Shown here piece after piece: positions 5,365-26,362 of a stretch of DNA of 64,000 nucleotides. The position numbers were made by a program, and so were the translations under genes. Source of the DNA: Alphaproteobacteria bacterium (GTDB lineage: Bacteria; Pseudomonadota; Alphaproteobacteria; CAAHEQ01; UBA3637). The notes under the pieces were generated by a model that saw nothing but the letters and a program-made list of their open reading frames with translations, was not told the origin of the DNA and searched no databases. The stretch covers positions 67,354 to 131,353 of the forward strand of contig JAFYHG010000008.1 in the NCBI GenBank assembly GCA_017539265.1. Direction: 5' to 3'. How positions within the stretch are numbered: the first letter of the stretch is position 1; the number at the start of each line of letters is the position of its first letter.

Positions 5365-5451
5365 TGGTGCCCAGAAGAAGACTCGAACTTCCACCCTTTT
5401 GACAGGACTAGCACCTGAAACTAGCGCGTCTACCAATTTCGCCATCTGGGC
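5365..5451 (-). tRNA. tRNA-Leu (anticodon CAG)
   Basis: The reverse complement reads gcccaga tg gcga aattggtaga cgc ... ctagt-ttCAGgt-gctag, then a long variable arm, gttcgagtc T-loop and tctgggc-a-cca. The 7-bp acceptor stem pairs perfectly. At 87 nt it is a class II tRNA. Confidence 0.93.
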
Positions 5452-5704: not shown

Positions 5705-5781
5705 GCGCTTGTAGCTCAGCTGGATAGAGTATTGCCCTCCGAAGGCAAGGGTCGTGAGTTCGAATCTCGCCAAGCGCGCCA
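5705..5781 (+). tRNA. tRNA-Arg (anticodon CCG)
   Basis: gcgcttg acceptor pairs with caagcgc. D-loop agctcagctggatagagt. Anticodon stem-loop ttgcc-ctCCGaa-ggcaa. T-loop gttcgaatc. Encoded CCA. Length 77 nt. Confidence 0.94.
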
Positions 5782-5794
5782 CTATTAAATTAAC

Positions 5795-5818
5795 GCCTTG
5801 TTTATCAAGGCTTTTTTT
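5795..5818 (+). terminator. Rho-independent terminator after tRNA-Arg
   Basis: gcctt-gtttatc-aaggc hairpin followed by T7. Confidence 0.65.
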
Positions 5819-5903
5819 ATACCTACACAATCGCATAATAATATATTAGCGACCTATCCTTGACAAAAAAGTCTTAACATCCTAAAAACATGAATTTTTT
5901 ATG

Positions 5904-5932
5904 TTGACAAAACGGACAAAAGTATGTATAAT
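5904..5932 (+). promoter_or_regulatory. Perfect consensus sigma70 promoter of the giant autotransporter gene
   Basis: TTGACA (5904-5909), exactly 17 nt, TATAAT (5927-5932). AGGAG RBS at 5949-5953 sits 7 nt before the ATG at 5961. Confidence 0.75.
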
Positions 5933-5960
5933 CAAGGAAAATTTTCGTAGGAGTCGCAAT

Positions 5961-8900
5961 ATGAAAAGATTTCTTTGTTTTGCTCTATGTTTAATTTGCA
6001 TCTTATTTGGTATTTCCGCACAGGCGGGAATTAGTTGTGCCAAAGGCTACATTAACTACAATGGCGCCTGTATCAAAAAACTGGATTGTAAAAATGGTGG
6101 CAAACAAGAAGGTTACAGTTGTACTTGCCCTAAGGGATGGACAGGCGAACTGTGCCAAAAAGCGGCGACTTGTCCTTATAAGGATACCAAGTGTTCCACC
6201 GGATATCATGCAACGGGAAAAACGTGTAAGACAGGAAATAAAACCGTTATTCAATGTGCCGTCAATGAATGTAAGGACTATCCCCATATGAAATGTCCGA
6301 CGGGATATACTTCCACGGGAACTTGTCAATCGGGTAAAACAAAGAGATATAAATGTGATGCTTGTGCCAAAGGATATATCCGGTATAACGGTCAATGTAT
6401 CAAGAAGCTGGATTGTAAAAACGGCGGAAAACAAAAAGGGAACAGTTGCACTTGCCCCGAAGGTTGGACGGGATCAAAATGTGATAAAGCGGCCAGTTGC
6501 CCCTATAAAGACACAAAATGTGCCAAAGGATACCACGAAACGGGAAAAACCTGTAAGACTGGAAAGAAAACCGTTAAAGAATGTAAAGCAAATGCTTGCG
6601 AAGGGTACACATATACAAAGTGTCCGACGGGATATGCTTCCACGGGCAGTTGCCAATCGGGCAAAACAACGAAATATAAATGTGATGCTTGTGCCAAAGG
6701 CTATATCCGGTATAACGGTCAATGTATCAAAAAGTTAGATTGTAAAAACGGTGGAAAACAAAAGGGGAATAGCTGTACCTGCCCCGAAGGTTGGACAGGT
6801 AAACAATGCCAAACCGCTGCTTCTTGCTCCTATAAAACAACCTCTTGTTCCAGTAGTCAAGTTGAAACGGGAAACACCTGTAAATCCGGAAATAAGACAT
6901 ATATTCAATGTGCTTCGTCCTGTCCCAAAGGAAAAGTTAAACAAGGGAAAAAGTGTGTGCCGGCCCCGAATTGTCAAAACGGCGGACATGCAAATGGTCT
7001 AAATTGTGTTTGCCCTGACGGTTGGACGGGAACACTTTGTGAAAAGCCAAAAACATGCCCTGCCGATTATACACAAGAATCTTGTGGCGAAGGATATGAA
7101 CAGGTTGGATCATCCTGTAAGTCAGGGGATAAAACATATGTAGCCTGCACGGAAGCGACTTGCCCCTATAATACAACCAGTTGTACAAGGGGCTATGAAG
7201 AAACGGGTGATACCTGTTTATCGGGAACGACCCTTTACAAAAAGTGCCGTGAAAAATCTTGTGCCGGGTATATCATGGGTAGTTGCCCCCAGAATGCTGA
7301 AGGGTGTGAAATTTGTTATCAGGGTGAGATCGAAACTTTCACTTACACCAAATGTAAAGACGGTTGGACGGGGTTAACCTGTAATGTGCCGGCAAATTGT
7401 CCGTATGATACCATCACTTGTCCGGAGGGTTATGAAGAAACAGGGGAAACCTGCCAATCGGGCGATAATACTTATAGGAAATGTAAACCAACCGATTGTA
7501 CCGCGCAAGGATATAAAGCCACTTGTCCGGAGGGTTATAATTCAACACAAGAATGTTTAAGCGGAACAACGCCTTATTATACCTGTACCCCGAAACAAGT
7601 GCCGGCGGGATATCAATCCGAACCTTGCGGTGCGGGTTATAATCAAGTGGATACTTTCTTGTCGGGTGAAACGACTTATTATAAATGCGAGGCCAAACAG
7701 GTACCAAGCGGCTATCAATCTGCCTCTTGCGGTGCCGGTTATGATCAGGTTGATACCTTCCTGTCGGGTAAGACAACCTATTATAAATGTCAGGCCAAAG
7801 ATTGCTCGGCCTATCAAACCGGTTGTTCGGCGGGATATACCGCAGAGCAATCGTGCTTAAGCGGAACAACTCCTTACTATACATGTGTTCCCAAAGTTTG
7901 TCCGGACGGATATAATACAAAGGGGACCTCCTGTTCGCGGGGCTATGTCCAAGCAGGCGATGTCTGCTTATCGGGCGAAGATACCTATGTGAAATGTGTT
8001 CCCAACACGTGTCCTGATACCCATAATGTGCTCGGCAGTTGCGGGGAAGGATATGTGCAAGTTGGGGAAGCCTGTTATTCCGAAGACAGAACATATGTGG
8101 CGTGTACAGAGGCAACCTGCCCCTATGATACAACCAGTTGTACAAGGGGTTATGAAGAAACGGGCGATACGTGTTTATCGGGAACAACCCTTTACAAAAA
8201 ATGCCGTGAAAAATCCTGCGCCGGATATATCATGGGCAGTTGTCCCCAAAATGCGGAAGGGTGCGAAACCTGTTATCAAGGCGAGATTGAAACCTTTACC
8301 TACACCAAATGTAAAGACGGTTGGACAGGATTAACCTGTAATGTGCCGGCAAATTGCCCATTTGATACCCTTACATGCGAGGGTGGCTATGAAGAAACGG
8401 GTGAAACCTGTCAATCGGGTGATAAGACTTATAAAAAATGTCAACCGATTGACTGTAGCGCTCAAGGATATAAAACAAGTTGTACGGAGGGTTACGACGC
8501 CGTTCAAGGATGCCTAAGCGGAACAACTCCTTATTATACCTGTACCCCGAAACAAGTGCCGGCAGAGTATCAGGTCGCCCCTTGTGGTTCGGGATATAAT
8601 CAAATTAATACTTTCTTATCGGGCGAAACAACTTATTATAAATGCGAAGCCATTCAGGTACCGGATGGCTATCAATCTGCCTCTTGCGGTGCCGGTTATG
8701 ATCAGGTTGATACGTTCTTATCAGGTGAAACAACTTATTATAAGTGCCAAGAAACAGATTGTTCCGCATATCAGACCGCTTGCGGTGCCGGATATGATGC
8801 CACAGAAGCTTGTTTAAGCGGTACAACGCCTTATTATACTTGTACGGAAAAAGAAGTGCCAACCGGCTATGGTGCCGAACCATGCGGTACCGGTTATGAT

Positions 8901-11900
8901 TTGGCTGACACCTTCTTATCGGGGGATAAAACCTATTATAAATGTGTTGCCAAAGAAGTTCCCGCCAGATATCAAGCCACTCCCTGCGGTGCGGGATATG
9001 ATGAAATAAGTACGTTCTTATCGGGAACGGCAACGTATTACGAATGTCAAGAAAAAGATTGTTCTCAATATCAGGCCGGCTGTGGAGAAGGCTATGATGC
9101 CGCACAAGCATGCTTAAGCGGCACAACACCCTATTATACATGTACGGAAAAGCAGGTTCCTGATGGATATTCATCCGAATCTTGCGATGACGGATATAAA
9201 CAAACAGGGACGTTCTTATCGGGTACAACAACATATTATCAATGTGCACCCGCCGATGTTCCGAACGGATATGTTGCCACATCTTGTGGTGCCGGTTATG
9301 ATCAGGTTGATACGTTCCTGTCAGGCGAAACAACTTATTATAAGTGCCAAGAAACAGATTGTTCCGCATATCAGACCGCTTGCGGTGCCGGATATGATGC
9401 CACAGAGGCCTGTTTAAGCGGTACGACACCTTATTATACCTGTACGGCAAAACAAGTACCTGCAGAATATCAGGCTGACCCCTGCGGTGCGGGATATAAT
9501 ACGGCTTCCACTTTCTTATCAGGTGAAACAACCTACTATCAATGCGTTGCCAAGCAAGCTCCGGAAGGATATCAAATGCCGGAATGTGCAGCAGGTTATG
9601 ATGAAGTAGCAACATTCTTATCCGGTGATACCGTTTATCATCAATGTGTTGCTAAACAGGTTCCTCCCGAATACAATGCCGAACCGTGCGGCGCGGGGTA
9701 TGATCAGGTTGGTACATTCCTGTCGGGTGAAACAACTTATTATAAGTGCCAGGAAACAGATTGCTCGGCATATCAGACCGCTTGCGGTGACGGATATGAT
9801 GCAACAGAGGCCTGTTTAAGCGGTACAACACATTATTATACCTGTACGGCGAAAGAAGTACCTGCGGGATACGTTGCCGAACCGTGCGGCGCGGGGTACA
9901 ATACTACTTCTACTTTCTTATCAGGTGAAACAACCTACTATAAATGTGTTGCTAACGCTTGTGACGGTTATCCATATGCCAATGCCTGTCCGACAGGATA
10001 TGCGCCGTCATCCAGTTGTCTGTCGGGTGATACAACGATGTATCAATGTAATACTTGCGCGGAAGGGTATATATCAGACGGCAATGGCGGTTGCGTCCTT
10101 AACGTGCCTCAAATCGGGAAAACAGGAGAGACCAACAATGATACCATCGAGGTAGAAAATACGGGTAATGATGATGTATACGGATTGCATTATGATGTTC
10201 CCGATAAACCCCAATATCATGACGTATTAACCGTTGTAAATGCCAGAAACAGTGAAGCGCAAATATCAATCGAAAATGAAGGGGACGGTAATGTTTATGG
10301 TATCCATGCGACGGGATATGCCGATGCGACGAATGCTTTAGGTGAAAACGCAATCGGAACAATTAATATTTCCAATATCGGAGATGGCGCTGTTTACGGT
10401 CTTTACAGTGAACAGAAAAAAGCATTTAATACCGAAGATAACGGTTCGGGCAGTATATCTATCACCAACGAAGGCGATGGTAATATTTACGGCATTTGGG
10501 GAAATGATGAAGCCGTTAACGCCGATGATGAGGGAGAAGGTACCATTGAAATTTCCAATACCGGTGACGGAAATGTATTTGGCGTATATGCGAAGGCCGA
10601 TTACGCCTCTAACAGTGACGGAACAGGTTCAATATCTATCACTAATATTGGTAATGGTTCTGTCTACGGTGTTTGGGGAAAAGCCAATGATCACCCCAAA
10701 GGTCTGATTGACGCCTACAACGCGGATGACATGGGTTCAAATGGTACTATTGAAATTTCTAATACCGGTGACGGCAATGTTTACGGTGTTTGGGGAAATA
10801 ATGGAGCCGCAAATGCCGGTGAAGATGGTACGGATGGAAGCATTGAAATTTCCAATACCGGATCGGGAAATGTCTATGGTGTCTATGCGAATGGTTGGTG
10901 GGCCCTTAATGCTGCCGGTGGTTTAGGGAATATAACCTTGTCAAATACGGGTGATGGTTCAACTTATGGTTTGTATGCAAAAGAATTTGCTCACAACGGT
11001 TGGGATCCCGCTTTTGCCTCAAGATGGCTTACGGAAGATGATGGTGACGGATGGCTATCCGTGGGACATATCAATATCGAGAATAATGGAACCGGAACCG
11101 CCTATGGCGCACATGGGCTTGAGGGCGCCTTTAACTTTGCCAATGAAAAGGGTACTTCTTCAATTGAAATCGCTAATAACGGGAGTGGTTTAGCTGTTGG
11201 TATGTATGCGCCCGAGGTCAACAATATGGGCAATATCCATATTGAAAATTACGGGAATGGAACGGCCATTGGTCTGTATACTACCCAAACGGCAGAAAAT
11301 ACCGGAAATATTTCCATTGATAACTATAAAAACGGAGTTGCCGTCGGTATCATGGCCCAAGGTGAGGGTGATAAAACGGTAACGAACGCCGGAACAATTA
11401 CTATCCGCGGGAAGCAATCTTTGGTGGAAGAGTCTGAATATCTGTCTAGACCGCAGGTGTGGAGTAATGAGGATAAATTTTGGGATGCGCGTGAAACATA
11501 TGAATATTTTCTCGCTAATCTCGTTAATTTTGAACAATCATATGCTGATATAATTGGCAATTCTGTCTGGAGTGAATATTGGAATTCGAGTGGAAATTGG
11601 GTAGTAGATGCTGAAGATATAATTCCGGAAAGGGGAATAGATGAAGATCAAATTTATTTTGAAAAGAATGACCATAGGGTTACAATACGTGATGATGAGC
11701 ATAGACAAAATGAAGTATTCTGGGAACTAGCCAATGATCTTACATTCAATTCACAACAGGAGGGCGATATCCTCGTAAGAGATATCGTTGATTGGGATGA
11801 TGTTCGGTTTGAGGATGGAAAGTTTGCTGAAACTCCCAGATTAAGTGATTCGGTCTATTATTGGACCGATTCAAAGGGACAAAATCATGCCACATCGGCG

Positions 11901-14900
11901 GGTGAACCGAATACGAGTGATTATACCTATGAAGATTCGGAGGGTACTTCACATTATTTAACGATTGATGGAGAGGGTAATTTAATAATTCCGACTAATC
12001 TTCTTAGCGATTCTACTGCGACTACAAATGCATTAAATGTTTTAAATGAATATAATCAGGATAAGGAAAATTACACAGCGGCATTAGGGATTTTAGAAAA
12101 TGACAGGGGAGAACTTGAATACGCGATTTCCGATTTCAATCAATCCATAGATAATTTACGGGAAACACTTAACGCAGTAAAAGAAGCCTACGGGCGATTT
12201 GTGGATAATTATTACGTTGCCTATGATATGGCACATGAGGAATGGGAAAATGATCGGGAAGGTCTTGCCATCGGTATCTATGGGGATAGGAATACCCATA
12301 TCGTGAATACGGGTAAAATTGTTATTGATAACTCGAAATGGACCTTTGGTATCTATACCGAGGGCGGAGATGTCACAAACCGTGGCCAAATCATTATTGA
12401 CGGCGATTATCTTAGTAAAAATGCCATTGTTTTAAATGGTGGAAACCTGTTCCAAAACGGTTTAATTTATACATATTCGGATTGGAATAATATCCAGCAA
12501 AAAGATTCTCTTATTGGTAAAGAAGGTAGCGTTAACAATGATGTCATTACACTGACTAATAATATAGAACGAGATGTCTATGGAATAAAAGGGATTAGTT
12601 ATTCCGTCAAAAATGCATTTCCAATGATAAACGGAGCAGAAGCAACCGGTTATATTAATATATCCAATTATAGTGATGGCAATGTATATGGTGTTAGCGG
12701 AGATAGTCCAAGAAATGCCCATATAGATCAAAATAATACGATTGCTACGGCCCATATACAGCTTGATAATATTGGTAACGGTAATGTCTACGGTTTGTAC
12801 TCAGAAAGTGGATGGGCCGAAAATATACGTGAAGATGGTGTAACCACAAATGTACATAGTGAAATCATCATTAACAATAAAGGCAATGGTGTTGTTTGTG
12901 GTGTAAAAGGTGAGGGAGAAGGACACAACATAAATATTTGGGCTGACTCAATGCTAAATAGTGATGTCAATGCGTTGATTAATATCACAAACCAAGGAAA
13001 TGGTACGGTATATGGGGTGTATAGTTCAAGCAGAGCCTTTAATATCGGTGGGGCACGTGTTCCGATGGAAAATAGTGATATTTCCAGTATTATTCGTATC
13101 CATAATGATGGTGATGCAGATATTTATGGCGTATACGGTCATGAAGTCCATAATAATGAAATATTTACCACTAATCCCAGTCGGACAGGTCTAGCCAAAG
13201 TATCTATATCTAATACCGGTGCCGGAAATGCTTATGGATTGTTTGGATATAATCCGGATAACATGGATCAAGGGAACGCTTTGTCGATTGTTGAAATGGC
13301 TAATATCGGGAATGGCTTAGCCGTCGGTATGTACGCAAAAAGAGAGGCAAAGAATTCCGGTACGATTACCATTCATAACTTGGGTAACGGAACGGCTGTC
13401 GGGATGTTGGTGGATGATAATGGGAAGGGATCAAACTCGGGCACAATTACGATTGATCGAGAAGCCTACACGGATGATATGGGGACACCGGATGACACGT
13501 CGGATGATGTAACATATGAAGCCACTTTAGGTCGTGGTGGGATGGCCATCGGTATCTATGGTGGTGTTGGTAGTACGATCACCAATACAGAAACCGGTAT
13601 TATCAATATCAGTGGCATCAACAAAGCCTATGGTATCTATAGTGAAAGTGGAAATGTCACAAACCTTGGCCAAATCATCATTAACGGCAATTCAAATCAC
13701 GCCAATGCGATTAAGCTGAATAGTGGAAAATTATTCCAAGACGGAAAATTAATTGTTGCAATAAGTTCAGATGATTGTGACGAAGGATATGCCCTTGATG
13801 AAAACGGTAATTGCGTTTTGAAAGATGAAAATGTTTACGGAAAAGTTTCAGAAAGTAATGATTCTACTTTGAATGTGGTTAATTCAAAGTACGCGGATGT
13901 ATACGGCTTATACGGAAACGGGGAAGTCGTCAACGCCAGAGATAATGATGCTTCAATTTCCGTTACGAATACAGGAGATGGTAATGTTTATGGCGTTTAT
14001 TCACCCGATGATAAGGCGAACAATGTAACAAACGACTTAACCGGAACAATCAATATTTCGAATGCCGGTAACGGAAATGTTTATGGTGTGTATTCGGCCG
14101 AAAGCCTTGCGTTCAATGCCGGTTCCGGAGCCGGAAACATCTTTATTTCCAACGTCGGGACCGGCGATGTCTATGGCGTCTACGGAAAAGAAGAAGCCGT
14201 CAATTCGGATGATTTTTATACAACGGGCAATATTCGGATTTCCAATACCGGATCGGGTAATGTATACGGCCTCTTCTCACCGGAAGGATGGAGCGGAAAT
14301 GCTTGGGACGGAACGGGTAATATTTCTCTGTTAAATACGGGGAATGGTACGACCTATGGTATGTATTCCGGCGCATTGGCTCATAACGGTTGGAATTTTG
14401 ATTTCTTATCCCGTTGGGAAAGCGAAATAAATGCCGAAGATGAAGATCAAGACGAAGGCTATGGTCATATCAGCATCGTTAATAACGGTAATGGGAATGC
14501 TTATGGTATGTTTGGTGCCAGGGGTGCCTTTAACCACTATAATGATGAAGATATCTCCACCATTGAAATTGCCAATATTGGAAACGGTTTAGCCGTTGGT
14601 ATGTATTCAAATGAAGTGAATAATTTGGGTGATATCACTATCCATAACCTTGGCAACGGCACCGCCGTCGGTATGATGACGGGTGATTTCGGTATCGCCG
14701 AAAACAGCGGAAGGATTACAATTGATCGTGAAGCCTATACCGATAATAACGGTACGCCCGATGATACATCGGATGATACAACCTATTCGGCAGCTTCTTC
14801 CGGAAGGGGTGGAATGGCCTTTGGTATCTATGGCGGAAAGAACAGTTTAATCTACAATACCGGTACCATTGATATCCGTGATGCCGAAAAAGCCTATGGT

Positions 14901-17900
14901 ATCTACAGTGAAGGCGGACGGGTTATCAATGAAGGTTCCATTATCATTGATGGTGATGAATTTAGCGCCAACGCCATCAAGTTAAATGCCGGTCAATTCT
15001 TCCAAAACGGTATCTTGACGGCAACGACGGATCCGAACACTTGCCCGGTGGGTTATACTCGAGATGAGTTTGGTCGTTGTGCCTATATTATGAAGAATGA
15101 TTTCCTCAATGATGATACATTAAGTGTCGCTAATACAGACGATGTCAATATTTATGGGCTGTATTATACTGTGCCTAATCAACAAAATTCCGATAGCGAT
15201 ACTATGGTTGGTGTTACTAATGCTAAATATAGTGAAGCGGAAATCTCAATCACAAATGAAAGCGAAGGGAATGTTTATGGTGTGTATGCATCCGGTTATA
15301 CGGATACGTCAAACAGTGCCGGTTATCCGGATGGTATCAATGACGGCAAACAAAGATATTTGGGTGTAATTGATATTTCCAACACCGGCAATGGTAATGT
15401 TTATGGTGTTTATAATGCAGAACATAATGCCTTTAACACGGAAAGCGGTTTAGGCAGGATAAATATTACCAACGCAGGCAATGGTGATGTTTACGGTATT
15501 TGGGGCGGTAATGAAGCCGTGAACTCGGACGGTGATGATTCGTTGGCTAACCTTAGGATTTCCAATACCGGAACCGGAAATGTTTATGGCGTGTTTGCTC
15601 AAGAAAGTTGGGCGGGGAATGCTTGGAACGGAATCGGAAACCTCTCTATATCCAATACAGGAAACGGAACAACCTATGGTATCCGTGCGGGTGATGTTGC
15701 TCATAACGGTTGGGATATAGCCTTTGCGTCCAAATGGGTTCCGGAAGAAGAAATTACTGATGATGACTATTGTTTAGGGGTTGGTCATCTCAAAGTCGTG
15801 AACAATGGTAATGGAAATGCTTATGGTGTGTTTGGACCGGAAGGTGCTTTCAACTATACAACCGATGTGGGGACTTCTACCATTGAAATTGCCAATGTCG
15901 GGAGTGGTTTAGCCGTCGGTATGCATTCAAGTGAAGTAAATAATATGGGTGATATCACTATCCATAACCTTGGAAACGGCGTGGCCGTCGGTATGATGAC
16001 GGGTGATTTCGGTATCGTGGAAAACAGCGGTACGATTACGATTGATCGCGTGGCCTATATAGATGATAACGGCACACCCGATAATACGTCGGATGATGTG
16101 AGATATGAAGCCGCTTTAACGCGTGGAGGTACAGCCATCGGTATCTATGGCGGTGCGGGCAGTACGATTACCAATACGTCGACAGGTGTTATTAATATTA
16201 GCGGCGCTGAAAAAGCCTATGGTATCTATAGTGCTGGTGGACAAGTTGTCAACAATGGTCAAATCATTATCGATGGTATCTTAAAAGGTGATGAAGCCAT
16301 CACACTGGCCGGCGGGAAATTATTCCAAAACGGGAAACTGGTTGTTGGCTCTATTCCGGATAATCTCCAATCAAGGGCCCATATCGTCGGCAAGATTGGG
16401 GAAAAGAATAATGCCACCATAACGATAGAAAATTCGGACTATGTTGATGTTTATGGCATTAGTAGTGGTGTGGATGCTGCAAATGCATCGGCGGAAGATG
16501 ATAACGAAAATGTGGCCGGTACAATAAATATTACCAATACAAATAACGGTAATGTTTATGCCGTGTACAGTGACCAAATGGAAGCCTCTAATGCGGAAGA
16601 CGGATTTGGAGAAATATTCGTCAATAACATAGGAAACGGAGATGTCTATGGCGTCTATGGTAATACCGAGGCCGCCAATGCCGATGAATTTGAAACCGTC
16701 GGTAATATCCGAATTTCCAATGCCGGAAGCGGTAATGTCTATGGCGTATTCGCAAAAGGCGGATGGGCCGGTAATGCCTGGGCAGGTGCAGGAAACCTGA
16801 GCATTTCGAACACGGGTGACGGCACAACCTATGGTCTTTATGCCAGCCAATATGCCCATAACGGTTGGAATTACACCTTCGGTCAAAAATGGTCTATATT
16901 TGACCCGGATGATATCGGTAGTTTAGGCGTTGGCCATATCCGTATCGTTAATAATGGTAACGGAAATGCCTATGGTATGCAGGGTGTAGAAGGTGCCTTT
17001 AACTTTGCCCATGAAAAAGGCGCTTCTTCGATTGAAATTGCCAATGTCGGGAGTGGTTTAGCCGTTGGTATGCATTCAAGTGAAGTAAATAACATGGGTG
17101 ATATCACTATCCATAACCTTGGAAATGGTACAGCCGTCGGTATGTTGGTCAATGATAACGGTGTTGCAGAAAACAGCGGCACGATTACGATTGATCGCGT
17201 GGCCTATACCGATGATAACGGTACACCCGATGACACGTCGGATGATACAACCTATGAAGCTGCCTCAGAACATGGTGGTAGGGCAATCGGTATCTATGGT
17301 GGCAAAAACAGCACGATTACCAATACCGGAATCATCAGCATCACCGGTGCAGATGATGCCTATGGTATCTATGCTGAGGAAGGCTCAACCTTCACAAACA
17401 GCGGTCAAATTATTATTGACGGTGATTCCAATCATGCCAATGCAATTAAATTAAACGGCGGAAAGCTCTTCCAAAACGGTAAATTGATTGCTAATGCCGA
17501 TGTTGAAGATATTACTCATCCGGACACAGGTTCAGAAATTATTTTAAAAACACTGACAGAAGAAGATGATGGAAATAATGAGACAATTAAAGCAGTTGTC
17601 AATTCGACAAGTTCAATTATTGGGATAGAGGCTCAAAATTCTGTCAGTAATATAATACTTGACTCCGGTAGTATGACAGCAACTGTCGATATTACACAAA
17701 GAGGCGTTGGCGATGTTTACGGAATGCGTGGCAATGTCAGTTCTTCTCAAGATATAAAAAATGTCGATTTGGCAGGTGATTCTGCAATGGGGGCTATCAA
17801 AATAACGGATACAAGTGCAGGAACCGGTAATATCTATGGAATGTATTCCAATTCCAATAAACAGGTTGAGAATGCACATGTAGATGGTGAAAATGATTCA

Positions 17901-20447
17901 ATGGCTATGGGAATAATTGACATTACCAATACAAGCGATAAAGATATTTATGGTATTTTAAATTTAGCAGATAATGAATATGATGACGGAGAAAACGGAA
18001 CAATCAATTCGGAAGGTGATGAAGGAACATCCATTGGTTACATTATCATTGATAATTCAGGTAATGGAGATGTTTATGGAATTAAAGCCATAAATCCGCA
18101 ATTTAATTCTGAATCCACAAAGCATGCCGAAAGCAAAGCATACATTAATATTAAAAATTCAGGATTGGGATCTGTTTATGGTATGTATGGCGAAGAAGAA
18201 GTATATAATGCGCGGGCAGGACATGACAGAGAGTATGGAGAGCTTAAAGATTATTCTTCTTCTACCGGTGTCATAAGTATAGATAGTTTTGATTCCAGCG
18301 ATGTTTATGGAATAAAGTCGACATCAGAAACAGCTTCCATATATAATGCAATGGCTTGGGATGCTGCAATGGCAAAAGGAACTATTCGTATTCATAATGT
18401 ACTTGATGGCGATGTCTATGGTATGAGTGGTAAATATATTCAATCTGCAGGAACAGCCACTAATAATGGAATCGCATTACCCAAAGCACCAAATGCCGAA
18501 AGTGTTATTAATATTATAAATCATTCATTGGGCGATAGTTATGGATTATATTCAGATATACAAGACAATATAATCAATCATAGTTCTTATACTAGAGATG
18601 ATGGAATAGCTAAATCTACCCTTGAAATGGCAAATATTGATAATGGTTTTGTTGTCGGTATTTACAGCAAGAACGGAACTGTAAATAACTCAGGGGATAT
18701 TAAAATTCATAACCTCTATAACGGAACTGCGGTTGGTATTTACGCTGATGGAACAACAAATGTTACAAACAGTGGAACCATCACAATCGATCGTGGAAAC
18801 TTTACAGATGATATGGGAACGGAAGATACATCAGACGATGTCACTTACACTTCTCGATCCACAACGGGCGGATTGGCAATCGGTATCTATGGCGGTGCGG
18901 GTAGCACGATTACCAATACCGGAACCATCAGCATCACCGGTGCAGATGATGCTTATGGTATTTACAGCGAAGGTGAAAGTGTTGTCAATAACGGACAAAT
19001 CATGATTGACGGCGTTTTGAAAAATGGGAATGAGGCAGTTGTGCTAAACGGCGGCCGGTTATTCCAAAATGGTAAACTTGTGGCCGCGGGCGGTGCTTCA
19101 TCGATAGAGTTAGGATTAGGAGGATCCACGACATCGGTATCCGAAACAGGTACCTCCACCGAAACACCTAAGGCTTCGTTGAACTTGAACGATTTCGGGG
19201 GTAGCGTTATTGCCTCCGAAACATCTGAATTCATTGTTGAAGGGGCTTTGTCCGGTGATTTAACCATGAACAACAGCGTGATTTCAAACGGTTTCCGGAC
19301 GGTTTATACGGTTCCTGATATGATATTGGCCGGCGATACCAGCGGATTGAACCTGATATCCGAATCGGCTTTGTTTGACGTTTCGTTGGCGGATAACGGA
19401 CACGATGTCGTGATGACAATGCGCGGCTTTGATGCGGCAACGGATAATCGCAGTTTTGCGAATTTCTTGGCCCGTAACTATGCCCTTAAAAACAATGAAG
19501 CGTTCTTTAATACCCTTAAAGAAATCGGGAATATGGCCACTCTGACGGATGGTTTGGATAAGATGATGGGTAAAGAGATGCTGAGTCGCTTTAACTTTGA
19601 AGACATGACGATGATGCGTGAACTCAATTTTGATATGAATAATCACTTATTCAACAATAAGGATTATTACTTCAGCATGGGCGGTTCAGTATCTTCACCG
19701 ATGGCCTTCCGCGGTGATAACGGATCCAACAGTCGGTATAGTCTGGCCAGTAAGAAGAAGGACTCTTGGTCACTGGGCCTTGGAATTGCCTTCACCGATA
19801 TTCGTAGCGATGATGACCATGACAATAACTCGCGTTCGGATACGATGTATCAGATGATTGTGCCTGTTGGGTATCAGGCAAATGGGTTCAAGTTTGTTAT
19901 GTCGCCTCGTATCGGATATGCACGCGGTCATTATGATCGGACCGGGTTCGATAATAAAAACTATGACGGAACGATTGAAAAGAGAATCTTTGGCTTAATG
20001 AACGAAGTCAGATACCCGATTGCTTTGGATAGTTGGCGGTTTGAACCGGCAATGGAATTCAATGCTTTAGGCTATGAACAAAAAGGTTGGGAAGACAAAA
20101 AAGAGTTCAGTTTGAATATCCCGCGGCAGAGAACATACTCTATTGAAAGCGGTATCGGTCTATATGCAACCCATGAAACCAAATGGGGTAAAGATACGCA
20201 ATTCAAATTTACAGCAGGTGTGGCAGCTTACCATGAATTTGCGGATCCTTACCGGATTGATGTGGGTATGGACGGCATGAACGGACGCTTTACTTTACGG
20301 GATGAAAAACGGTCGGATAACCGCGGTGTCGTTCGGGCCGGATTTGAAATCGAAAAGAAAGATTATTCTGTGTATGGCTCCTTTATCTCTTATGTGGATA
20401 AAGAAGTCCGCAGTAAGGCAAAGCTTGGATTTAAGTGGAAGTTCTAA
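5961..20447 (+). CDS. Giant (~4,828 aa) type Va autotransporter / surface adhesin-like protein with EGF-like modules, Cys-rich repeats and a beta-solenoid repeat passenger
   Basis: Uninterrupted ORF. Start placed at MKRFLCFALCLICILFGISAQA (signal peptide, good RBS) because the ORF-track ATG at 5901 overlaps the -35 box. The C-terminal ~260 aa show alternating hydrophobic strands and end in GFKWKF, with the terminal aromatic typical of OMP barrels. Upstream lies a helical linker region (NRSFANFLARNYALKNNEAFFNTLKE...), as in autotransporter domains. Confidence 0.85.
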   Translation: MKRFLCFALCLICILFGISAQAGISCAKGYINYNGACIKKLDCKNGGKQEGYSCTCPKGWTGELCQKAATCPYKDTKCSTGYHATGKTCKTGNKTVIQCAVNECKDYPHMKCPTGYTSTGTCQSGKTKRYKCDACAKGYIRYNGQCIKKLDCKNGGKQKGNSCTCPEGWTGSKCDKAASCPYKDTKCAKGYHETGKTCKTGKKTVKECKANACEGYTYTKCPTGYASTGSCQSGKTTKYKCDACAKGYIRYNGQCIKKLDCKNGGKQKGNSCTCPEGWTGKQCQTAASCSYKTTSCSSSQVETGNTCKSGNKTYIQCASSCPKGKVKQGKKCVPAPNCQNGGHANGLNCVCPDGWTGTLCEKPKTCPADYTQESCGEGYEQVGSSCKSGDKTYVACTEATCPYNTTSCTRGYEETGDTCLSGTTLYKKCREKSCAGYIMGSCPQNAEGCEICYQGEIETFTYTKCKDGWTGLTCNVPANCPYDTITCPEGYEETGETCQSGDNTYRKCKPTDCTAQGYKATCPEGYNSTQECLSGTTPYYTCTPKQVPAGYQSEPCGAGYNQVDTFLSGETTYYKCEAKQVPSGYQSASCGAGYDQVDTFLSGKTTYYKCQAKDCSAYQTGCSAGYTAEQSCLSGTTPYYTCVPKVCPDGYNTKGTSCSRGYVQAGDVCLSGEDTYVKCVPNTCPDTHNVLGSCGEGYVQVGEACYSEDRTYVACTEATCPYDTTSCTRGYEETGDTCLSGTTLYKKCREKSCAGYIMGSCPQNAEGCETCYQGEIETFTYTKCKDGWTGLTCNVPANCPFDTLTCEGGYEETGETCQSGDKTYKKCQPIDCSAQGYKTSCTEGYDAVQGCLSGTTPYYTCTPKQVPAEYQVAPCGSGYNQINTFLSGETTYYKCEAIQVPDGYQSASCGAGYDQVDTFLSGETTYYKCQETDCSAYQTACGAGYDATEACLSGTTPYYTCTEKEVPTGYGAEPCGTGYDLADTFLSGDKTYYKCVAKEVPARYQATPCGAGYDEISTFLSGTATYYECQEKDCSQYQAGCGEGYDAAQACLSGTTPYYTCTEKQVPDGYSSESCDDGYKQTGTFLSGTTTYYQCAPADVPNGYVATSCGAGYDQVDTFLSGETTYYKCQETDCSAYQTACGAGYDATEACLSGTTPYYTCTAKQVPAEYQADPCGAGYNTASTFLSGETTYYQCVAKQAPEGYQMPECAAGYDEVATFLSGDTVYHQCVAKQVPPEYNAEPCGAGYDQVGTFLSGETTYYKCQETDCSAYQTACGDGYDATEACLSGTTHYYTCTAKEVPAGYVAEPCGAGYNTTSTFLSGETTYYKCVANACDGYPYANACPTGYAPSSSCLSGDTTMYQCNTCAEGYISDGNGGCVLNVPQIGKTGETNNDTIEVENTGNDDVYGLHYDVPDKPQYHDVLTVVNARNSEAQISIENEGDGNVYGIHATGYADATNALGENAIGTINISNIGDGAVYGLYSEQKKAFNTEDNGSGSISITNEGDGNIYGIWGNDEAVNADDEGEGTIEISNTGDGNVFGVYAKADYASNSDGTGSISITNIGNGSVYGVWGKANDHPKGLIDAYNADDMGSNGTIEISNTGDGNVYGVWGNNGAANAGEDGTDGSIEISNTGSGNVYGVYANGWWALNAAGGLGNITLSNTGDGSTYGLYAKEFAHNGWDPAFASRWLTEDDGDGWLSVGHINIENNGTGTAYGAHGLEGAFNFANEKGTSSIEIANNGSGLAVGMYAPEVNNMGNIHIENYGNGTAIGLYTTQTAENTGNISIDNYKNGVAVGIMAQGEGDKTVTNAGTITIRGKQSLVEESEYLSRPQVWSNEDKFWDARETYEYFLANLVNFEQSYADIIGNSVWSEYWNSSGNWVVDAEDIIPERGIDEDQIYFEKNDHRVTIRDDEHRQNEVFWELANDLTFNSQQEGDILVRDIVDWDDVRFEDGKFAETPRLSDSVYYWTDSKGQNHATSAGEPNTSDYTYEDSEGTSHYLTIDGEGNLIIPTNLLSDSTATTNALNVLNEYNQDKENYTAALGILENDRGELEYAISDFNQSIDNLRETLNAVKEAYGRFVDNYYVAYDMAHEEWENDREGLAIGIYGDRNTHIVNTGKIVIDNSKWTFGIYTEGGDVTNRGQIIIDGDYLSKNAIVLNGGNLFQNGLIYTYSDWNNIQQKDSLIGKEGSVNNDVITLTNNIERDVYGIKGISYSVKNAFPMINGAEATGYINISNYSDGNVYGVSGDSPRNAHIDQNNTIATAHIQLDNIGNGNVYGLYSESGWAENIREDGVTTNVHSEIIINNKGNGVVCGVKGEGEGHNINIWADSMLNSDVNALINITNQGNGTVYGVYSSSRAFNIGGARVPMENSDISSIIRIHNDGDADIYGVYGHEVHNNEIFTTNPSRTGLAKVSISNTGAGNAYGLFGYNPDNMDQGNALSIVEMANIGNGLAVGMYAKREAKNSGTITIHNLGNGTAVGMLVDDNGKGSNSGTITIDREAYTDDMGTPDDTSDDVTYEATLGRGGMAIGIYGGVGSTITNTETGIINISGINKAYGIYSESGNVTNLGQIIINGNSNHANAIKLNSGKLFQDGKLIVAISSDDCDEGYALDENGNCVLKDENVYGKVSESNDSTLNVVNSKYADVYGLYGNGEVVNARDNDASISVTNTGDGNVYGVYSPDDKANNVTNDLTGTINISNAGNGNVYGVYSAESLAFNAGSGAGNIFISNVGTGDVYGVYGKEEAVNSDDFYTTGNIRISNTGSGNVYGLFSPEGWSGNAWDGTGNISLLNTGNGTTYGMYSGALAHNGWNFDFLSRWESEINAEDEDQDEGYGHISIVNNGNGNAYGMFGARGAFNHYNDEDISTIEIANIGNGLAVGMYSNEVNNLGDITIHNLGNGTAVGMMTGDFGIAENSGRITIDREAYTDNNGTPDDTSDDTTYSAASSGRGGMAFGIYGGKNSLIYNTGTIDIRDAEKAYGIYSEGGRVINEGSIIIDGDEFSANAIKLNAGQFFQNGILTATTDPNTCPVGYTRDEFGRCAYIMKNDFLNDDTLSVANTDDVNIYGLYYTVPNQQNSDSDTMVGVTNAKYSEAEISITNESEGNVYGVYASGYTDTSNSAGYPDGINDGKQRYLGVIDISNTGNGNVYGVYNAEHNAFNTESGLGRINITNAGNGDVYGIWGGNEAVNSDGDDSLANLRISNTGTGNVYGVFAQESWAGNAWNGIGNLSISNTGNGTTYGIRAGDVAHNGWDIAFASKWVPEEEITDDDYCLGVGHLKVVNNGNGNAYGVFGPEGAFNYTTDVGTSTIEIANVGSGLAVGMHSSEVNNMGDITIHNLGNGVAVGMMTGDFGIVENSGTITIDRVAYIDDNGTPDNTSDDVRYEAALTRGGTAIGIYGGAGSTITNTSTGVINISGAEKAYGIYSAGGQVVNNGQIIIDGILKGDEAITLAGGKLFQNGKLVVGSIPDNLQSRAHIVGKIGEKNNATITIENSDYVDVYGISSGVDAANASAEDDNENVAGTINITNTNNGNVYAVYSDQMEASNAEDGFGEIFVNNIGNGDVYGVYGNTEAANADEFETVGNIRISNAGSGNVYGVFAKGGWAGNAWAGAGNLSISNTGDGTTYGLYASQYAHNGWNYTFGQKWSIFDPDDIGSLGVGHIRIVNNGNGNAYGMQGVEGAFNFAHEKGASSIEIANVGSGLAVGMHSSEVNNMGDITIHNLGNGTAVGMLVNDNGVAENSGTITIDRVAYTDDNGTPDDTSDDTTYEAASEHGGRAIGIYGGKNSTITNTGIISITGADDAYGIYAEEGSTFTNSGQIIIDGDSNHANAIKLNGGKLFQNGKLIANADVEDITHPDTGSEIILKTLTEEDDGNNETIKAVVNSTSSIIGIEAQNSVSNIILDSGSMTATVDITQRGVGDVYGMRGNVSSSQDIKNVDLAGDSAMGAIKITDTSAGTGNIYGMYSNSNKQVENAHVDGENDSMAMGIIDITNTSDKDIYGILNLADNEYDDGENGTINSEGDEGTSIGYIIIDNSGNGDVYGIKAINPQFNSESTKHAESKAYINIKNSGLGSVYGMYGEEEVYNARAGHDREYGELKDYSSSTGVISIDSFDSSDVYGIKSTSETASIYNAMAWDAAMAKGTIRIHNVLDGDVYGMSGKYIQSAGTATNNGIALPKAPNAESVINIINHSLGDSYGLYSDIQDNIINHSSYTRDDGIAKSTLEMANIDNGFVVGIYSKNGTVNNSGDIKIHNLYNGTAVGIYADGTTNVTNSGTITIDRGNFTDDMGTEDTSDDVTYTSRSTTGGLAIGIYGGAGSTITNTGTISITGADDAYGIYSEGESVVNNGQIMIDGVLKNGNEAVVLNGGRLFQNGKLVAAGGASSIELGLGGSTTSVSETGTSTETPKASLNLNDFGGSVIASETSEFIVEGALSGDLTMNNSVISNGFRTVYTVPDMILAGDTSGLNLISESALFDVSLADNGHDVVMTMRGFDAATDNRSFANFLARNYALKNNEAFFNTLKEIGNMATLTDGLDKMMGKEMLSRFNFEDMTMMRELNFDMNNHLFNNKDYYFSMGGSVSSPMAFRGDNGSNSRYSLASKKKDSWSLGLGIAFTDIRSDDDHDNNSRSDTMYQMIVPVGYQANGFKFVMSPRIGYARGHYDRTGFDNKNYDGTIEKRIFGLMNEVRYPIALDSWRFEPAMEFNALGYEQKGWEDKKEFSLNIPRQRTYSIESGIGLYATHETKWGKDTQFKFTAGVAAYHEFADPYRIDVGMDGMNGRFTLRDEKRSDNRGVVRAGFEIEKKDYSVYGSFISYVDKEVRSKAKLGFKWKF
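6036..7040 (+). repeat. Four EGF-like six-cysteine modules; the first three lie in a 327-nt (109-aa) tandem triplication
   Basis: Modules at 6036-6155, 6363-6482, 6690-6809 and 6921-7040 share the spacing C-x10-C-x5-C-x10-C-x-C-x8-C, with CKNGGKQxGxSCTCPxGWTGxxC. Copies 1-3 start exactly 327 nt apart. Confidence 0.8.
7041..10094 (+). repeat. Array of ~36-aa Cys-rich repeats (C-G-x-G-Y ... L-S-G-x-T-x-Y-Y-x-C) with nested large duplications
   Basis: The units PCGAGYDQVDTFLSGETTYYKC and DCSAYQTACGAGYDATEACLSGTTPYYTC recur dozens of times. The block at 7138 repeats at 8095 (offset 957 nt). Segments 8688-8845 and 9288-9445 are near-identical at an offset of exactly 600 nt. A third copy lies near 9700-9840. 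Confidence 0.85.
10095..19085 (+). repeat. Six super-repeats (about 1.15-2.4 kb each) made of ~28-32-aa units with the core I-x-I-S-N-x-G-x-G-N-V-Y-G-[VIL]; predicted beta-solenoid passenger
   Basis: Each super-repeat ends with ...TITIDR-AYTDD-GTPDDTSDD-TYEA...GG-AIGIYGG...AYGIYSEGG-V-N-GQIIIDG...ANAIKLNGGKLFQNGKL. The end motifs lie near 12480, 13770, 15033, 16352, 17500 and 19085. Confidence 0.8.
19664..20444 (+). other. Predicted autotransporter beta-barrel translocator domain
   Basis: Amphipathic strand pattern (WSLGLGIAFTDI, YQMIVPVGYQ, FKFVMSPRIGYA, FGLMNEVRYPI, FEPAMEFNALGY, IESGIGLYAT, FKFTAGVAAYHEF, VRAGFEIEK, VYGSFISYV) and the terminal KLGFKWKF. Confidence 0.75.
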
Positions 20448-20465
20448 CCAACTTTTCCAAACAAA

Positions 20466-20485
20466 CCTCCCCCAAACGGGGGAGG
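20466..20485. terminator. Shared hairpin between convergent genes
   Basis: cctccccc-aaac-gggggagg 8-bp GC-rich stem. A T-rich tract follows on the minus strand (tttgtttgg), so it reads as a terminator at least for the minus-strand gene. Confidence 0.6.
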
Positions 20486-20521
20486 TAATAATTGTTGCTT
20501 TGATTACCTATCGCTATTTTC

Positions 20522-23573: not shown

Positions 23574-23617
23574 CAATCGGGGTGGCTAGCCCACCCCACA
23601 ACAAAAGGAGGAAAAAA

Positions 23618-24508: not shown

Positions 24509-24518
24509 GGAGGAAAAA

Positions 24519-25634: not shown

Positions 25635-25673
25635 CAATCGCGGTGTCTGACCACCACCCAAAAGGAGAAAAAA

Positions 25674-26333: not shown

Positions 26334-26362
26334 AAGTTTATAGCAACAGAAGGGAGAATAAA

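What the first reader, a model, noticed from the sequence alone, without database searches (positions are those of the whole stretch)
6036..7040. Eukaryote-type EGF-like modules at the tip of a bacterial surface protein
Seen: four modules share the six-Cys spacing C-x10-C-x5-C-x10-C-x-C-x8-C. The motif CTCPKGWTGELC (variants CTCPEGWTGSKC and CVCPDGWTGTLC) fits the EGF signatures C-x-C-x(5)-G-x(2)-C and C-x-C-x(2)-[GP]-[FYW]-x(4,8)-C as I recall them from PROSITE. An NGG turn precedes the C-x-C, as in Notch- or laminin-type EGF repeats. The first three modules sit in an exact 327-nt tandem triplication. Two further half-modules (CKDGWTGLTC) occur near 7351-7381 and 8311-8340. Established: EGF domains are overwhelmingly metazoan or eukaryotic extracellular modules and are rare in bacteria. 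Inference: this is host-mimicry or receptor-binding modules, possibly acquired or convergently evolved in a eukaryote-associated bacterium.
Basis: partly seen in the sequence, partly recalled or inferred. Interest (0 to 1): 0.78.

Follow-up and report, generated by a model that had tools for sequence, protein, structure and literature searches.

The report
EGF-like tip on giant bacterial autotransporter
A 4,828-residue surface protein of an uncultured gut bacterium carries real but non-standard EGF-like modules at its outer tip, as part of a 1,350-residue cysteine-rich array that is unusual for this secretion type, and nothing shows they were recently copied from a host.

Summary
The four six-Cys modules are real and sit exactly at the stated coordinates. 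None of 5000 shuffles reached four matches. The "exact 327-nt triplication" is wrong: the copies are 72-87% identical in DNA, with synonymous changes dominating.

The modules open a monocistronic gene (5961-20447). It encodes a classical type Va autotransporter: signal peptide, a 1,353-aa array of 38 small Cys modules (142 Cys), six large Cys-poor passenger units, and a PF03797 beta-barrel.

The last four Cys of each module form an EGF-like core:
- A profile of these modules finds only EGF domains in the PDB (Notch1, E=2.5e-8).
- The AlphaFold model (pLDDT 96) overlays Jagged, Notch and fibrillin EGFs over about 30 residues at 0.9-2 Å.
- Homologues pass the Pfam teneurin-EGF cut-offs.

The module is not a canonical EGF. 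The canonical C3 is absent. The first two Cys are gained and lost together (100 both, 52 neither, 4 one; p=2e-36), so they probably close a separate hairpin.

At least 76 related long proteins exist. All named members come from Alphaproteobacteria MAGs, and the source-labelled ones from ruminant guts. The same four-Cys core also occurs in small secreted proteins, including one from a Caulobacteraceae MAG.

The most likely role is the distal, disulfide-stabilised part of an adhesin fibre. Host mimicry and recent transfer from a eukaryote are unsupported.

The parts
5904..5932 (+). Sigma-70-type promoter-like site, TTGACA-17 nt-TATAAT (12 of 12 matches). It lies inside the 5' extension of the mechanical ORF.
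5949..5963 (+). AGGAG ribosome-binding site (5949-5953) and the probable true start codon ATG at 5961
   Evidence: sequence read; the spacing is 7 nt
5961..20447 (+). Coding sequence of the giant autotransporter: 4,828 aa from ATG 5961. The mechanical ORF starts at 5901 and is 4,848 aa.
5961..6026 (+). Predicted Sec signal peptide MKRFLCFALCLICILFGISAQA, with cleavage after AQA (by inspection)
   Evidence: no signal-peptide predictor was available
6036..10094 (+). Cys-rich array, aa 46-1398, with 142 Cys. It holds 4 A modules, 2 H half-modules, 20 four-Cys B modules, 12 two-Cys B modules and a terminal two-Cys hairpin.
6036..6155 (+). A module 1: two-Cys hairpin (6036-6071) followed by the four-Cys EGF-like core (6087-6155)
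6363..6482 (+). A module 2 (hairpin plus EGF-like core)
6690..6809 (+). A module 3 (hairpin plus EGF-like core)
6921..7040 (+). A module 4 (hairpin plus EGF-like core; the most divergent copy)
7305..7382 (+). H half-module 1: CxxC-x13-C-KDGWTG-x2-C. It keeps the EGF C5-C6 sub-loop but lacks C4.
8262..8339 (+). H half-module 2. It lies within a duplicated block (aa 734-843 matches aa 415-524) that is 86% identical in DNA, with 36 synonymous against 7 non-synonymous codon differences.
6171..10049 (+). 32 B modules (about 30 aa each, C-x6-7-C-x2-GY-x5-6-C-x-SG-x3-Y-x-C, or a two-Cys variant), interspersed with the A and H modules. No Pfam or PDB sequence match.
10056..10094 (+). Lone two-Cys hairpin CAEGYISDGNGGC (aa 1386-1398) at the junction with the passenger
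10095..19073 (+). Cys-poor passenger: six large units with GNxYG-type repeats, each ending in LNGGxLFQNG (aa 2178, 2606, 3028, 3469, 3851, 4382). It includes an acidic non-repeat insert at 11406-12257.
13776..13814 (+). Lone two-Cys hairpin CDEGYALDENGNC (aa 2626-2638) just after passenger unit 2
15042..15080 (+). Lone two-Cys hairpin CPVGYTRDEFGRC (aa 3048-3060) just after passenger unit 3
19758..20444 (+). Autotransporter beta-barrel translocator domain, ending in KWKF. PF03797 scores 71.3 bits against a cut-off of 26, and TIGR01414 scores 37.2 against 16.
20465..20486 (.). GC-rich hairpin (9 bp stem) between the convergent genes; a bidirectional terminator-like site

Best explanation
The finding is the extreme N-terminus of a monocistronic gene for a giant classical (type Va) autotransporter. 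The organism is probably an uncultured Alphaproteobacterium of an animal gut.

The protein has four parts:
- a Sec signal peptide;
- a 1,353-residue array of 38 small disulfide modules;
- about 3,000 residues of Cys-poor repeat passenger;
- a C-terminal beta-barrel.

Each six-Cys module is composite. A 12-residue beta-hairpin, closed by its own disulfide (Cys1-Cys2), is followed by a four-Cys EGF-like core. That core corresponds to EGF C2, C4, C5 and C6, with inferred bonds Cys3-Cys4 and Cys5-Cys6. The canonical C1-C3 bond is absent.

Inferred mechanism:
1. The barrel is inserted in the outer membrane.
2. The passenger emerges C-terminus first, so the Cys-rich array emerges last and ends up farthest from the cell.
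3. All inferred disulfide loops are short (8-20 residues). This is the only kind reported to be compatible with autotransporter secretion.
4. The array forms a long, protease-resistant, rod-like extension whose first four modules present EGF-like surfaces for adhesion to a so far unknown ligand on host mucosa or on other gut organisms.

The EGF-like core belongs to a bacterial lineage of the EGF fold. It is not a recent copy of a host gene.
For: Shown:
- Gene anatomy.
- Autotransporter beta-domain: PF03797 71.3 bits against 26; TIGR01414 37.2 against 16. The 39 homologues of the C-terminus are mostly PF03797, and NCBI names them autotransporters of Alphaproteobacteria MAGs.
- EGF-likeness by curated models: PF21700 scores 50 bits (cut-off 27) on aa 1-1333. 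Homologue P0098 scores 91.9 against 65 on PF25024 and 87.4 against 24.3 on PF23106. P0001 and P0045 also pass.
- EGF-likeness by reverse search: a profile of 23 modules finds 79 PDB sequences at E<1, and all those listed are EGF domains (Notch1 2.5e-8, DLL4 1e-7, WIF-1 5e-7).
- EGF-likeness by fold: AlphaFold2 gives pLDDT 89.8 for a 121-aa unit and 96.4 for a single module. Every top Foldseek hit is an EGF domain. The core overlays Jagged-1 (30 columns, 0.9 Å), fibrillin (28 columns, 0.9 Å) and Notch1 EGF26 (31 columns, 1.9 Å, 42% identity).
- Rewired cysteines: alignments put the canonical C3 on Q/K. Among 156 distinct cores from 76 family proteins, Cys1 and Cys2 are both present in 100, both absent in 52, and singly present in 4 (Fisher p=2e-36). 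The hairpin also occurs alone, with only two Cys, at aa 1386-1398, 2626-2638 and 3048-3060.
- B-module cysteines Ca and Cc are both present in 98, both absent in 29, and singly present in 1 (p=6e-28).
- Purifying selection between paralogous copies.
- Bacterial family: 233 representatives at E<=1e-3, with the top roughly 80 being 1,000-5,200-aa proteins ending in outer-membrane-protein motifs. Related loci lie in ruminant-gut Alphaproteobacteria MAGs.
- The four-Cys core also occurs in small secreted proteins, one from a Caulobacteraceae MAG.
- Short-loop tolerance of autotransporters is stated in PMC3546941.

Inferred: export order, rod shape and adhesive role.
Against: - Disulfide pairing rests on Cys co-occurrence and on alignment to EGF, not on measured geometry.
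- Pfam scores for the window protein depend on how it is cut: PF21700 scores 20.5 bits on the whole protein and 23.9 on 6036-7040, both below 27. Classical PF00008 is below its cut-off (16.5 against 21.5).
- Foldseek E-values never reach 1e-3 (best 5e-3 and 4.5e-2), as is usual for 30-45-residue domains.
- No ligand, expression or localisation data exist.
- The organism's taxonomy is inferred from homologues only.
- Whether disulfides form at all in an anoxic gut organism is unknown.
Confidence: 0.7

Rival explanations
1. Host mimicry by recently acquired eukaryotic EGF modules. The bacterium captured EGF repeats from an animal or protist host and uses them to engage host EGF-recognising receptors (ErbB, Notch, integrins).
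For: - Outside the bacterial family, the closest sequence relatives are metazoan tenascin, Notch-like and Delta-like proteins, and PDB hits are Notch, Delta and Jagged.
- The organisms are gut-associated.
- The modules are at the distal tip.
- An unrelated autotransporter, Chlamydia Pmp21, is reported to use EGFR as its receptor (abstract of PMC3635982).
Against: - The canonical C1-C3 disulfide is missing and an extra hairpin is added.
- The four-Cys form is shared with small secreted proteins, one from a Caulobacteraceae MAG, and is not the standard metazoan form.
- At least 76 divergent bacterial representatives at 50% identity imply long evolution inside bacteria.
- GC content is 44.8%, like the flanks.
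- There is no DSL domain or calcium-binding EGF consensus.
- Receptor-binding residues were not testable.
Confidence: 0.1
2. Purely architectural stalk. The EGF-like and B modules only act as a rigid, protease-resistant spacer. Ligand binding, if any, resides elsewhere, for example in the repeat passenger or the acidic insert at 11406-12257.
For: - Tandem EGF arrays are rod-like spacers in many eukaryotic proteins (established knowledge).
- 32 of the 38 modules are B modules of uniform sequence.
- The array length varies widely between relatives: about 1,350 aa here, against about 500-650 aa in L001 and L002.
Against: - In type Va autotransporters the N-terminus is the distal, usually functional end.
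- The Cys-rich region is better conserved than the passenger between this protein and L001/L002 (42-47% against 25-28% identity), although invariant Cys inflate this figure.
- The A modules are kept nearly identical in protein sequence despite many synonymous changes.
Confidence: 0.2
3. Convergence. The modules are an independent bacterial Cys-rich motif that merely resembles EGF, with no common ancestry.
For: - The domain is about 30 residues and dominated by Cys and Gly, so similarity scores are modest: 20 bits or less per domain, and Foldseek E above 1e-3.
- One canonical disulfide is missing.
Against: - Every listed PDB profile hit and every top fold hit is an EGF domain.
- Identity to EGF domains is 33-42% over the core.
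- Family members contain fully canonical six-Cys EGFs next to four-Cys ones, for example CADVNCGTNGTCSEGVCVCSNNYYGTNC in P0098 and CLNVSCGEHGQCSAGTCVCEDGFVGATC in P0067. They also pass the Pfam teneurin-EGF cut-offs by a wide margin.
Confidence: 0.1

Closest known systems
Tenascin/teneurin-type EGF repeats (Pfam PF23106 EGF_Teneurin, PF25024 EGF_TEN)
   Same: - About 30-residue modules in tandem, with the C-x-C-x2-G-[WFY]-x-G-x2-C C-terminal signature and the major beta-hairpin.
- Homologues P0098, P0001 and P0045 exceed the curated cut-offs.
- Lamprey tenascin is among the first non-family hits.
   Different: - The window modules lack the canonical C1-C3 disulfide and carry an extra N-terminal two-Cys hairpin.
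- The host is a bacterial autotransporter, not a eukaryotic matrix or transmembrane protein.
Delta/Jagged atypical EGF1-2 (Pfam PF21700 EGF_DL_JAG) and Notch EGF repeats
   Same: - It is the best Pfam model for the window protein (50 bits on aa 1-1333).
- The GW-x-G motif is shared.
- The C-x-NGG motif aligns with Notch C2-x-NGG.
- The core overlays Jagged-1 at 0.9 Å over 30 columns.
   Different: - No DSL domain and no calcium-binding consensus.
- The canonical C3 is replaced by Q or K.
- The Pfam score falls below the cut-off for other fragmentations of the protein.
Classical (type Va) autotransporter adhesins
   Same: N-terminal signal peptide, a long repeat passenger, a C-terminal PF03797 barrel and a terminal aromatic residue.
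   Different: - A 1,353-residue passenger segment with 142 Cys.
- By my own knowledge, autotransporter passengers are typically Cys-poor. PMC3546941 reports that only closely spaced Cys pairs are tolerated.
- Pfam found no known passenger domain.
Small secreted bacterial proteins with three four-Cys EGF-like cores (P0132 from a Caulobacteraceae MAG; P0157, labelled 'EGF-like domain' in IMG)
   Same: The identical four-Cys core C-x9-10-C-x-C-x2-GW-x-G-x2-C, without the C1-C3 pair.
   Different: They are 125-150-aa stand-alone proteins with high-GC-type (Ala/Gly/Arg-rich) sequences. They have no hairpin, no B modules and no autotransporter domain.

Membership tests
EGF-like domain superfamily (Pfam EGF clan: PF00008, PF21700, PF23106, PF25024) | Score above the curated cut-off of an EGF-family profile HMM | tested here: inconclusive
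   - Window protein: PF21700 scores 50.0 against 27 on aa 1-1333, but 20.5 on the whole protein and 23.9 on 6036-7040. PF00008 scores 16.5 against 21.5.
- Homologues pass clearly: P0098 scores 91.9 against 65 on PF25024 and 87.4 against 24.3 on PF23106. P0045 scores 48.8 on PF21700. P0001 scores 33.0 on PF21700 and 31.8 on PF23106.
EGF-like domain superfamily | A reverse search with a profile of the modules recovers EGF domains of known structure | tested here: met
   There are 79 PDB sequences at E<1, and every one listed is an EGF domain. The best are Notch1 2.5e-8, DLL4 9.9e-8 and WIF-1 5.3e-7.
EGF-like domain superfamily | EGF fold: a major two-stranded hairpin carrying C4, then a small C-terminal loop closed by C5-C6 | tested here: met
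   - AlphaFold2 pLDDT is 96.4, with strands 25-27/30-32 and a bridge at 38/44.
- The top Foldseek hits are all EGF domains: 26-31 columns at 0.9-2.9 Å and 33-42% identity. E-values are only 0.045-0.7.
EGF-like domain superfamily | Six cysteines bonded C1-C3, C2-C4, C5-C6 | tested here: not met
   - The canonical C3 column holds Q or K.
- Cys1 and Cys2 of the module co-occur (100 both, 52 neither, 4 one; p=2e-36) and also occur alone as two-Cys hairpins.
- The inferred pairing is therefore 1-2, 3-4, 5-6.
EGF-like domain superfamily | C-terminal signature C-x-C-x2-[GP]-[FYW]-x4-8-C | tested here: met
   Four matches against 0.11 expected in shuffles. C, C, G, G and C are invariant in 65 aligned family modules.
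Calcium-binding EGF (cbEGF) | The D/N-x-D/N-E/Q-C consensus before C1, and an EGF_CA profile match | tested here: not met
   No EGF_CA hit at E<=10. The residues before the first Cys are IS, DA, DA and SS.
Type Va (classical) autotransporter | C-terminal autotransporter beta-barrel domain | tested here: met
   PF03797 scores 71.3 bits against 26 (E=1.4e-19, model positions 37-253 of 255). TIGR01414 scores 37.2 against 16. The homologues are named autotransporters.
Type Va (classical) autotransporter | N-terminal Sec signal peptide, and a single polypeptide carrying both passenger and barrel | tested here: met
   There is one ORF. The sequence MKRFLCFALCLICILFGISAQA follows the RBS and ATG 5961. 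This is by inspection only, because no predictor was available.
Type Va (classical) autotransporter | Beta-helical passenger | not tested
Pfam finds no passenger family.
Host receptor ligands (ErbB ligands, DSL Notch ligands) | Three canonical disulfides plus receptor-contact residues, or a DSL domain | tested here: not met
   One canonical disulfide is absent. No DSL or MNNL family hit was found. Actual binding is not testable with these tools.

The most novel reading that the evidence does not exclude
The four-Cys 'GWxG' core may be an indigenous and old bacterial lineage of the EGF fold. It is used both in giant autotransporter fibres and in small secreted proteins of Alphaproteobacteria. 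Animal tenascin/teneurin-type EGF repeats could then descend from such bacterial modules rather than the reverse. In addition, this family would show that type Va secretion can export arrays of more than 1,000 residues built from disulfide-knotted modules.
Probability: 0.1. Interest if true: 0.8.

Novelty: new variant of a known kind. Interest (0 to 1): 0.55.

Why it matters
- **Autotransporter biology.** Passengers are considered poorly compatible with disulfides. This family carries up to 142 cysteines in short-loop modules on the passenger. It is a natural test case for what the Bam/autotransporter pathway can export, and a possible scaffold for displaying disulfide-rich proteins.
- **Domain evolution.** The family documents a bacterial EGF-like variant with one canonical disulfide lost and a separate hairpin added. 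It sits next to canonical six-Cys EGFs in the same family, and next to a second, undescribed 30-residue Cys module.
- **Gut microbiology.** It identifies the probable major adhesin fibre of an uncultured ruminant-gut alphaproteobacterial lineage.

Tried and rejected
- A word-indexed search with the 45-column module profile found only 4 candidates and no hits. That search was wasted.
- An exact look-up of the window protein from either start codon found nothing on record, so the source sample stays unknown.
- Pfam on long fragments missed the beta-domain. A 295-aa fragment recovered it, so the miss was a filter artefact.
- The B-module profile against the PDB gave only a chance-level Kazal match at E=0.42. 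No known family can be assigned.
- Literature searches for bacterial EGF-like domains or EGF-bearing autotransporters returned nothing relevant.
- The key paper on disulfide loops in autotransporters (Leyton 2011, PMC3234927) is not held. I used its summary in PMC3546941 instead.
- AlphaFold coordinates are not exposed, so S-S distances could not be measured.
- Rejected: a chance Cys pattern; an exact DNA repeat; compositional evidence of foreign origin.
- Rejected: the overlapping ORFs at 6003-6434 (-) and 6355-6738 (+) as real genes. The main frame has homologues and a synonymous-dominated substitution pattern.
- Zinc binding instead of disulfides was considered unlikely, given the confident EGF-like model and the extracytoplasmic location. 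It is not excluded.
Full report

The region lies in a single 14.5-kb ORF, 5901-20447 on the + strand. The pattern C-x10-C-x5-C-x10-C-x-C-x8-C matches exactly four times, at nt 6036-6155, 6363-6482, 6690-6809 and 6921-7040. GWTG half-modules lie at nt 7362 and 8319. In 5000 shuffles of the Cys-rich region, which keep its 10.5% Cys content, the six-Cys pattern averaged 0.002 matches and never reached four.

The claim of an exact 327-nt triplication is wrong.
- Tandem Repeats Finder gives 2.3 copies at 79% matches.
- The EGF-like segments are 72-87% identical in DNA, and the third unit is shorter.
- Most differences are synonymous: 18 synonymous against 7 non-synonymous codons for modules 1 and 2, and 12 against 2 for modules 2 and 3.
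- A second duplicated block (aa 415-524 and 734-843) shows 36 synonymous against 7 non-synonymous codon differences.

These are old paralogous copies kept under purifying selection at the protein level.

**2. Gene and protein anatomy**

- **Transcription unit.** A perfect sigma-70 consensus (TTGACA-17-TATAAT, 5904-5932) and an AGGAG site (5949-5953) precede ATG 5961. The likely product is 4,828 aa. A GC-rich hairpin at 20465-20486 separates the gene from a convergent gene, so the gene is monocistronic.
- **Signal peptide.** The product starts with MKRFLCFALCLICILFGISAQA. The first Cys of module 1 is then the fourth residue of the mature protein.
- **Beta-barrel.** The C-terminal 295 aa match the autotransporter beta-domain: PF03797 at 71.3 bits against a cut-off of 26, and TIGR01414 at 37.2 against 16. 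The protein ends in KWKF. The 39 homologues of this part mostly carry PF03797, and where NCBI names them they are autotransporters of Alphaproteobacteria MAGs.
- **Passenger.** Between the two ends lie about 3,000 nearly Cys-free residues. They form six large units with GNxYG-type repeats, each ending in LNGGxLFQNG.

The protein is therefore a classical type Va autotransporter. By established knowledge of these proteins, the N-terminus is the part farthest from the cell.

**3. The Cys-rich array**

Residues 46-1398 hold 142 Cys, and all of them fall into recognisable modules:
- four A modules, which are the finding;
- two H half-modules (CxxC ... C-KDGWTG-x2-C);
- twenty four-Cys B modules (C-x6-7-C-x2-GY-x5-6-C-x-SG-x3-Y-x-C);
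- twelve two-Cys B modules;
- one terminal two-Cys hairpin.

The B module has no Pfam hit and no PDB sequence relative.

**4. Are the A modules EGF?**

Sequence evidence:
- PF21700 (Delta/Jagged EGF) scores 50 bits against a cut-off of 27 on aa 1-1333. It scores only 20.5 on the whole protein and 23.9 on 6036-7040. Classical PF00008 scores 16.5 against 21.5. On curated cut-offs alone the window protein is borderline.
- Homologues are not borderline. P0098 shares the same passenger and the same FKWKF end. It scores 91.9 against 65 on PF25024 and 87.4 against 24.3 on PF23106. P0001 and P0045 also pass.
- A profile of 23 modules, searched against all PDB sequences, returns 79 hits at E<1. All of those listed are EGF domains, led by Notch1 EGF8-12 (2.5e-8), DLL4 (1e-7) and WIF-1 (5e-7).
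- An unbiased profile search of 1.84 billion representative proteins finds the bacterial family first. After it come metazoan tenascin, Notch-like and Delta-like proteins.

Fold evidence:
- AlphaFold2 models are confident: pLDDT 89.8 for a 121-aa unit and 96.4 for a single module.
- Every top Foldseek hit is an EGF domain. About 30 residues overlay Jagged-1 and fibrillin at 0.9 Å and Notch1 EGF26 at 1.9 Å, with 33-42% identity.
- Foldseek E-values stay above 1e-3, as expected for such small domains.

I conclude that the C-terminal two-thirds of each module is an EGF-like core.

**5. The module is not a canonical six-Cys EGF**

- The PDB alignments place the module's third Cys on EGF C2 (the C-x-NGG motif of Notch). 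The last three Cys fall on C4, C5 and C6. The canonical C3 column is Q or K.
- I examined 156 distinct cores from 76 family proteins. The first two Cys are both present in 100 cores, both absent in 52, and singly present in only 4 (Fisher p=2e-36). At least two of the four exceptions come from the scoring window or are canonical EGFs.
- The same C-x2-GY-x7-C hairpin stands alone, as the only Cys pair for hundreds of residues, at aa 1386-1398, 2626-2638 and 3048-3060. Each one starts a passenger unit.
- The most economical reading is a self-contained hairpin disulfide (1-2) followed by a four-Cys EGF core (3-4 equivalent to C2-C4, and 5-6 equivalent to C5-C6).
- The same logic gives Ca-Cc and Cb-Cd for the B module: both present in 98, both absent in 29, one exception, p=6e-28.

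I could not read disulfide geometry directly, because model coordinates are not exposed. This is the main gap in the argument.

**6. Distribution and origin**

- The profile search gives 233 representatives at E<=1e-3 and 32 at E<=1e-30. The top roughly 80 are proteins of 1,000-5,200 aa with N-terminal Cys modules and C-terminal outer-membrane-protein motifs.
- Named members and related genome loci are all uncultured Alphaproteobacteria. The labelled sources are water buffalo colon, rumen and RUG MAGs.
- Relatives share the architecture at 25-47% identity, but the length of the Cys array differs greatly.
- Canonical six-Cys EGFs occur in the same family, in P0098 and P0067.
- The four-Cys core also forms small secreted proteins with three repeats, for example in a Caulobacteraceae MAG.
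- GC content of the region matches the flanks.

None of this indicates a recent capture from a host. An ancient transfer in either direction cannot be resolved with 30-residue domains.

**7. Mechanism (inferred)**

After Sec export and barrel insertion, the passenger is threaded out C-terminus first. The Cys-rich array therefore emerges last and becomes the distal part of a very long fibre.

All inferred disulfide loops span 8-20 residues. That fits the reported rule that autotransporters tolerate only closely spaced Cys pairs (PMC3546941, citing Leyton 2011 and Jong 2007).

The array probably forms a stiff, protease-resistant extension whose first four modules present EGF-like binding surfaces. 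An adhesive role is the best guess. The ligand is unknown.

**8. Surroundings**

- Two tRNA genes lie just upstream.
- The neighbouring genes are housekeeping or unrelated: an Aas-like acyltransferase, an ELM1-like protein, a CcrM-like methyltransferase, a PP2C-type phosphatase, MscS, CarD, RsmB and FtsZ.
- No accessory secretion or Dsb genes were seen nearby.

**9. Verdict**

The canonical six-Cys mapping, the exact DNA repeat and the host-acquisition story are not supported.

The finding is a new variant of known kinds: an autotransporter adhesin with an EGF-like module. Its most unusual aspect is a very large disulfide-rich passenger segment.

Noticed in passing
window 5365-5451 (-) and 5705-5781 (+): tRNA-Leu(CAG) and tRNA-Arg(CCG) lie immediately upstream of the giant gene, with a terminator-like hairpin at 5795-5811. 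tRNA genes are common island insertion sites, but the gene's GC content is not atypical.
   Followed up: partly
window 5901-5960: The first 20 codons of the mechanical ORF contain a perfect sigma-70 consensus promoter. The real start is probably ATG 5961, which is preceded by AGGAG.
   Followed up: yes
homologues P0002, P0044, P0045, P0053, P0098 (N-terminal about 200 aa): Many family members carry a signal peptide, an ankyrin-like segment (weak Ank_2 hits) and a Gly/Ser-rich hydrophobic stretch before the first EGF-like core. This holds for 34 of 44 full-length-like members. The window protein lacks this region. Its role in an autotransporter is unexplained.
   Followed up: partly
window 11406-12257 (aa 1836-2119): A 284-aa acidic, Trp/Tyr-containing, non-repeat insert sits inside the first passenger unit. 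It has no Pfam hit and could be a separate functional domain.
   Followed up: no
proteins P0132, P0157, P0116, P0120, P0149, P0174: A family of 125-150-aa secreted proteins made of three four-Cys EGF-like cores (C-x9-10-C-x-C-x2-GW-x-G-x2-C). P0132 comes from a Caulobacteraceae MAG, and P0157 is labelled 'EGF-like domain' in IMG.
   Followed up: partly
L006 about 9914-10560 (+); L005 about 10001-10162: A Saprospiraceae MAG encodes a lipoprotein-like protein with a canonical six-Cys EGF ([28 protein letters not shown]). A Bacteroidales MAG has tandem C-x-NGG...CxCxC-PEGWTG modules. EGF-like modules therefore also occur in Bacteroidota.
   Followed up: no
window 3688-4641 (+): This ORF has a strong match to PF06258 'Mitochondrial fission ELM1' (269 bits). 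It lies next to a CcrM-like DNA methyltransferase at 4631-5338.
   Followed up: no
window 23582-27187 (+): Four consecutive ORFs (308, 371, 219 and 290 aa) have no Pfam or NCBIfam match.
   Followed up: no
window aa 2333 and 3291 of the ORF (nt about 12897 and 15771): Two isolated single cysteines lie in the otherwise Cys-free passenger. Their partners, if any, are unknown.
   Followed up: no
L003 about aa 3320 of frame +1; L001 C-terminal part: In relatives, EGF-like cores and hairpins also occur between passenger units, for example directly after ...LNGGKLFQDG. The modules are therefore shuffled along the fibre and are not confined to the tip.
   Followed up: partly
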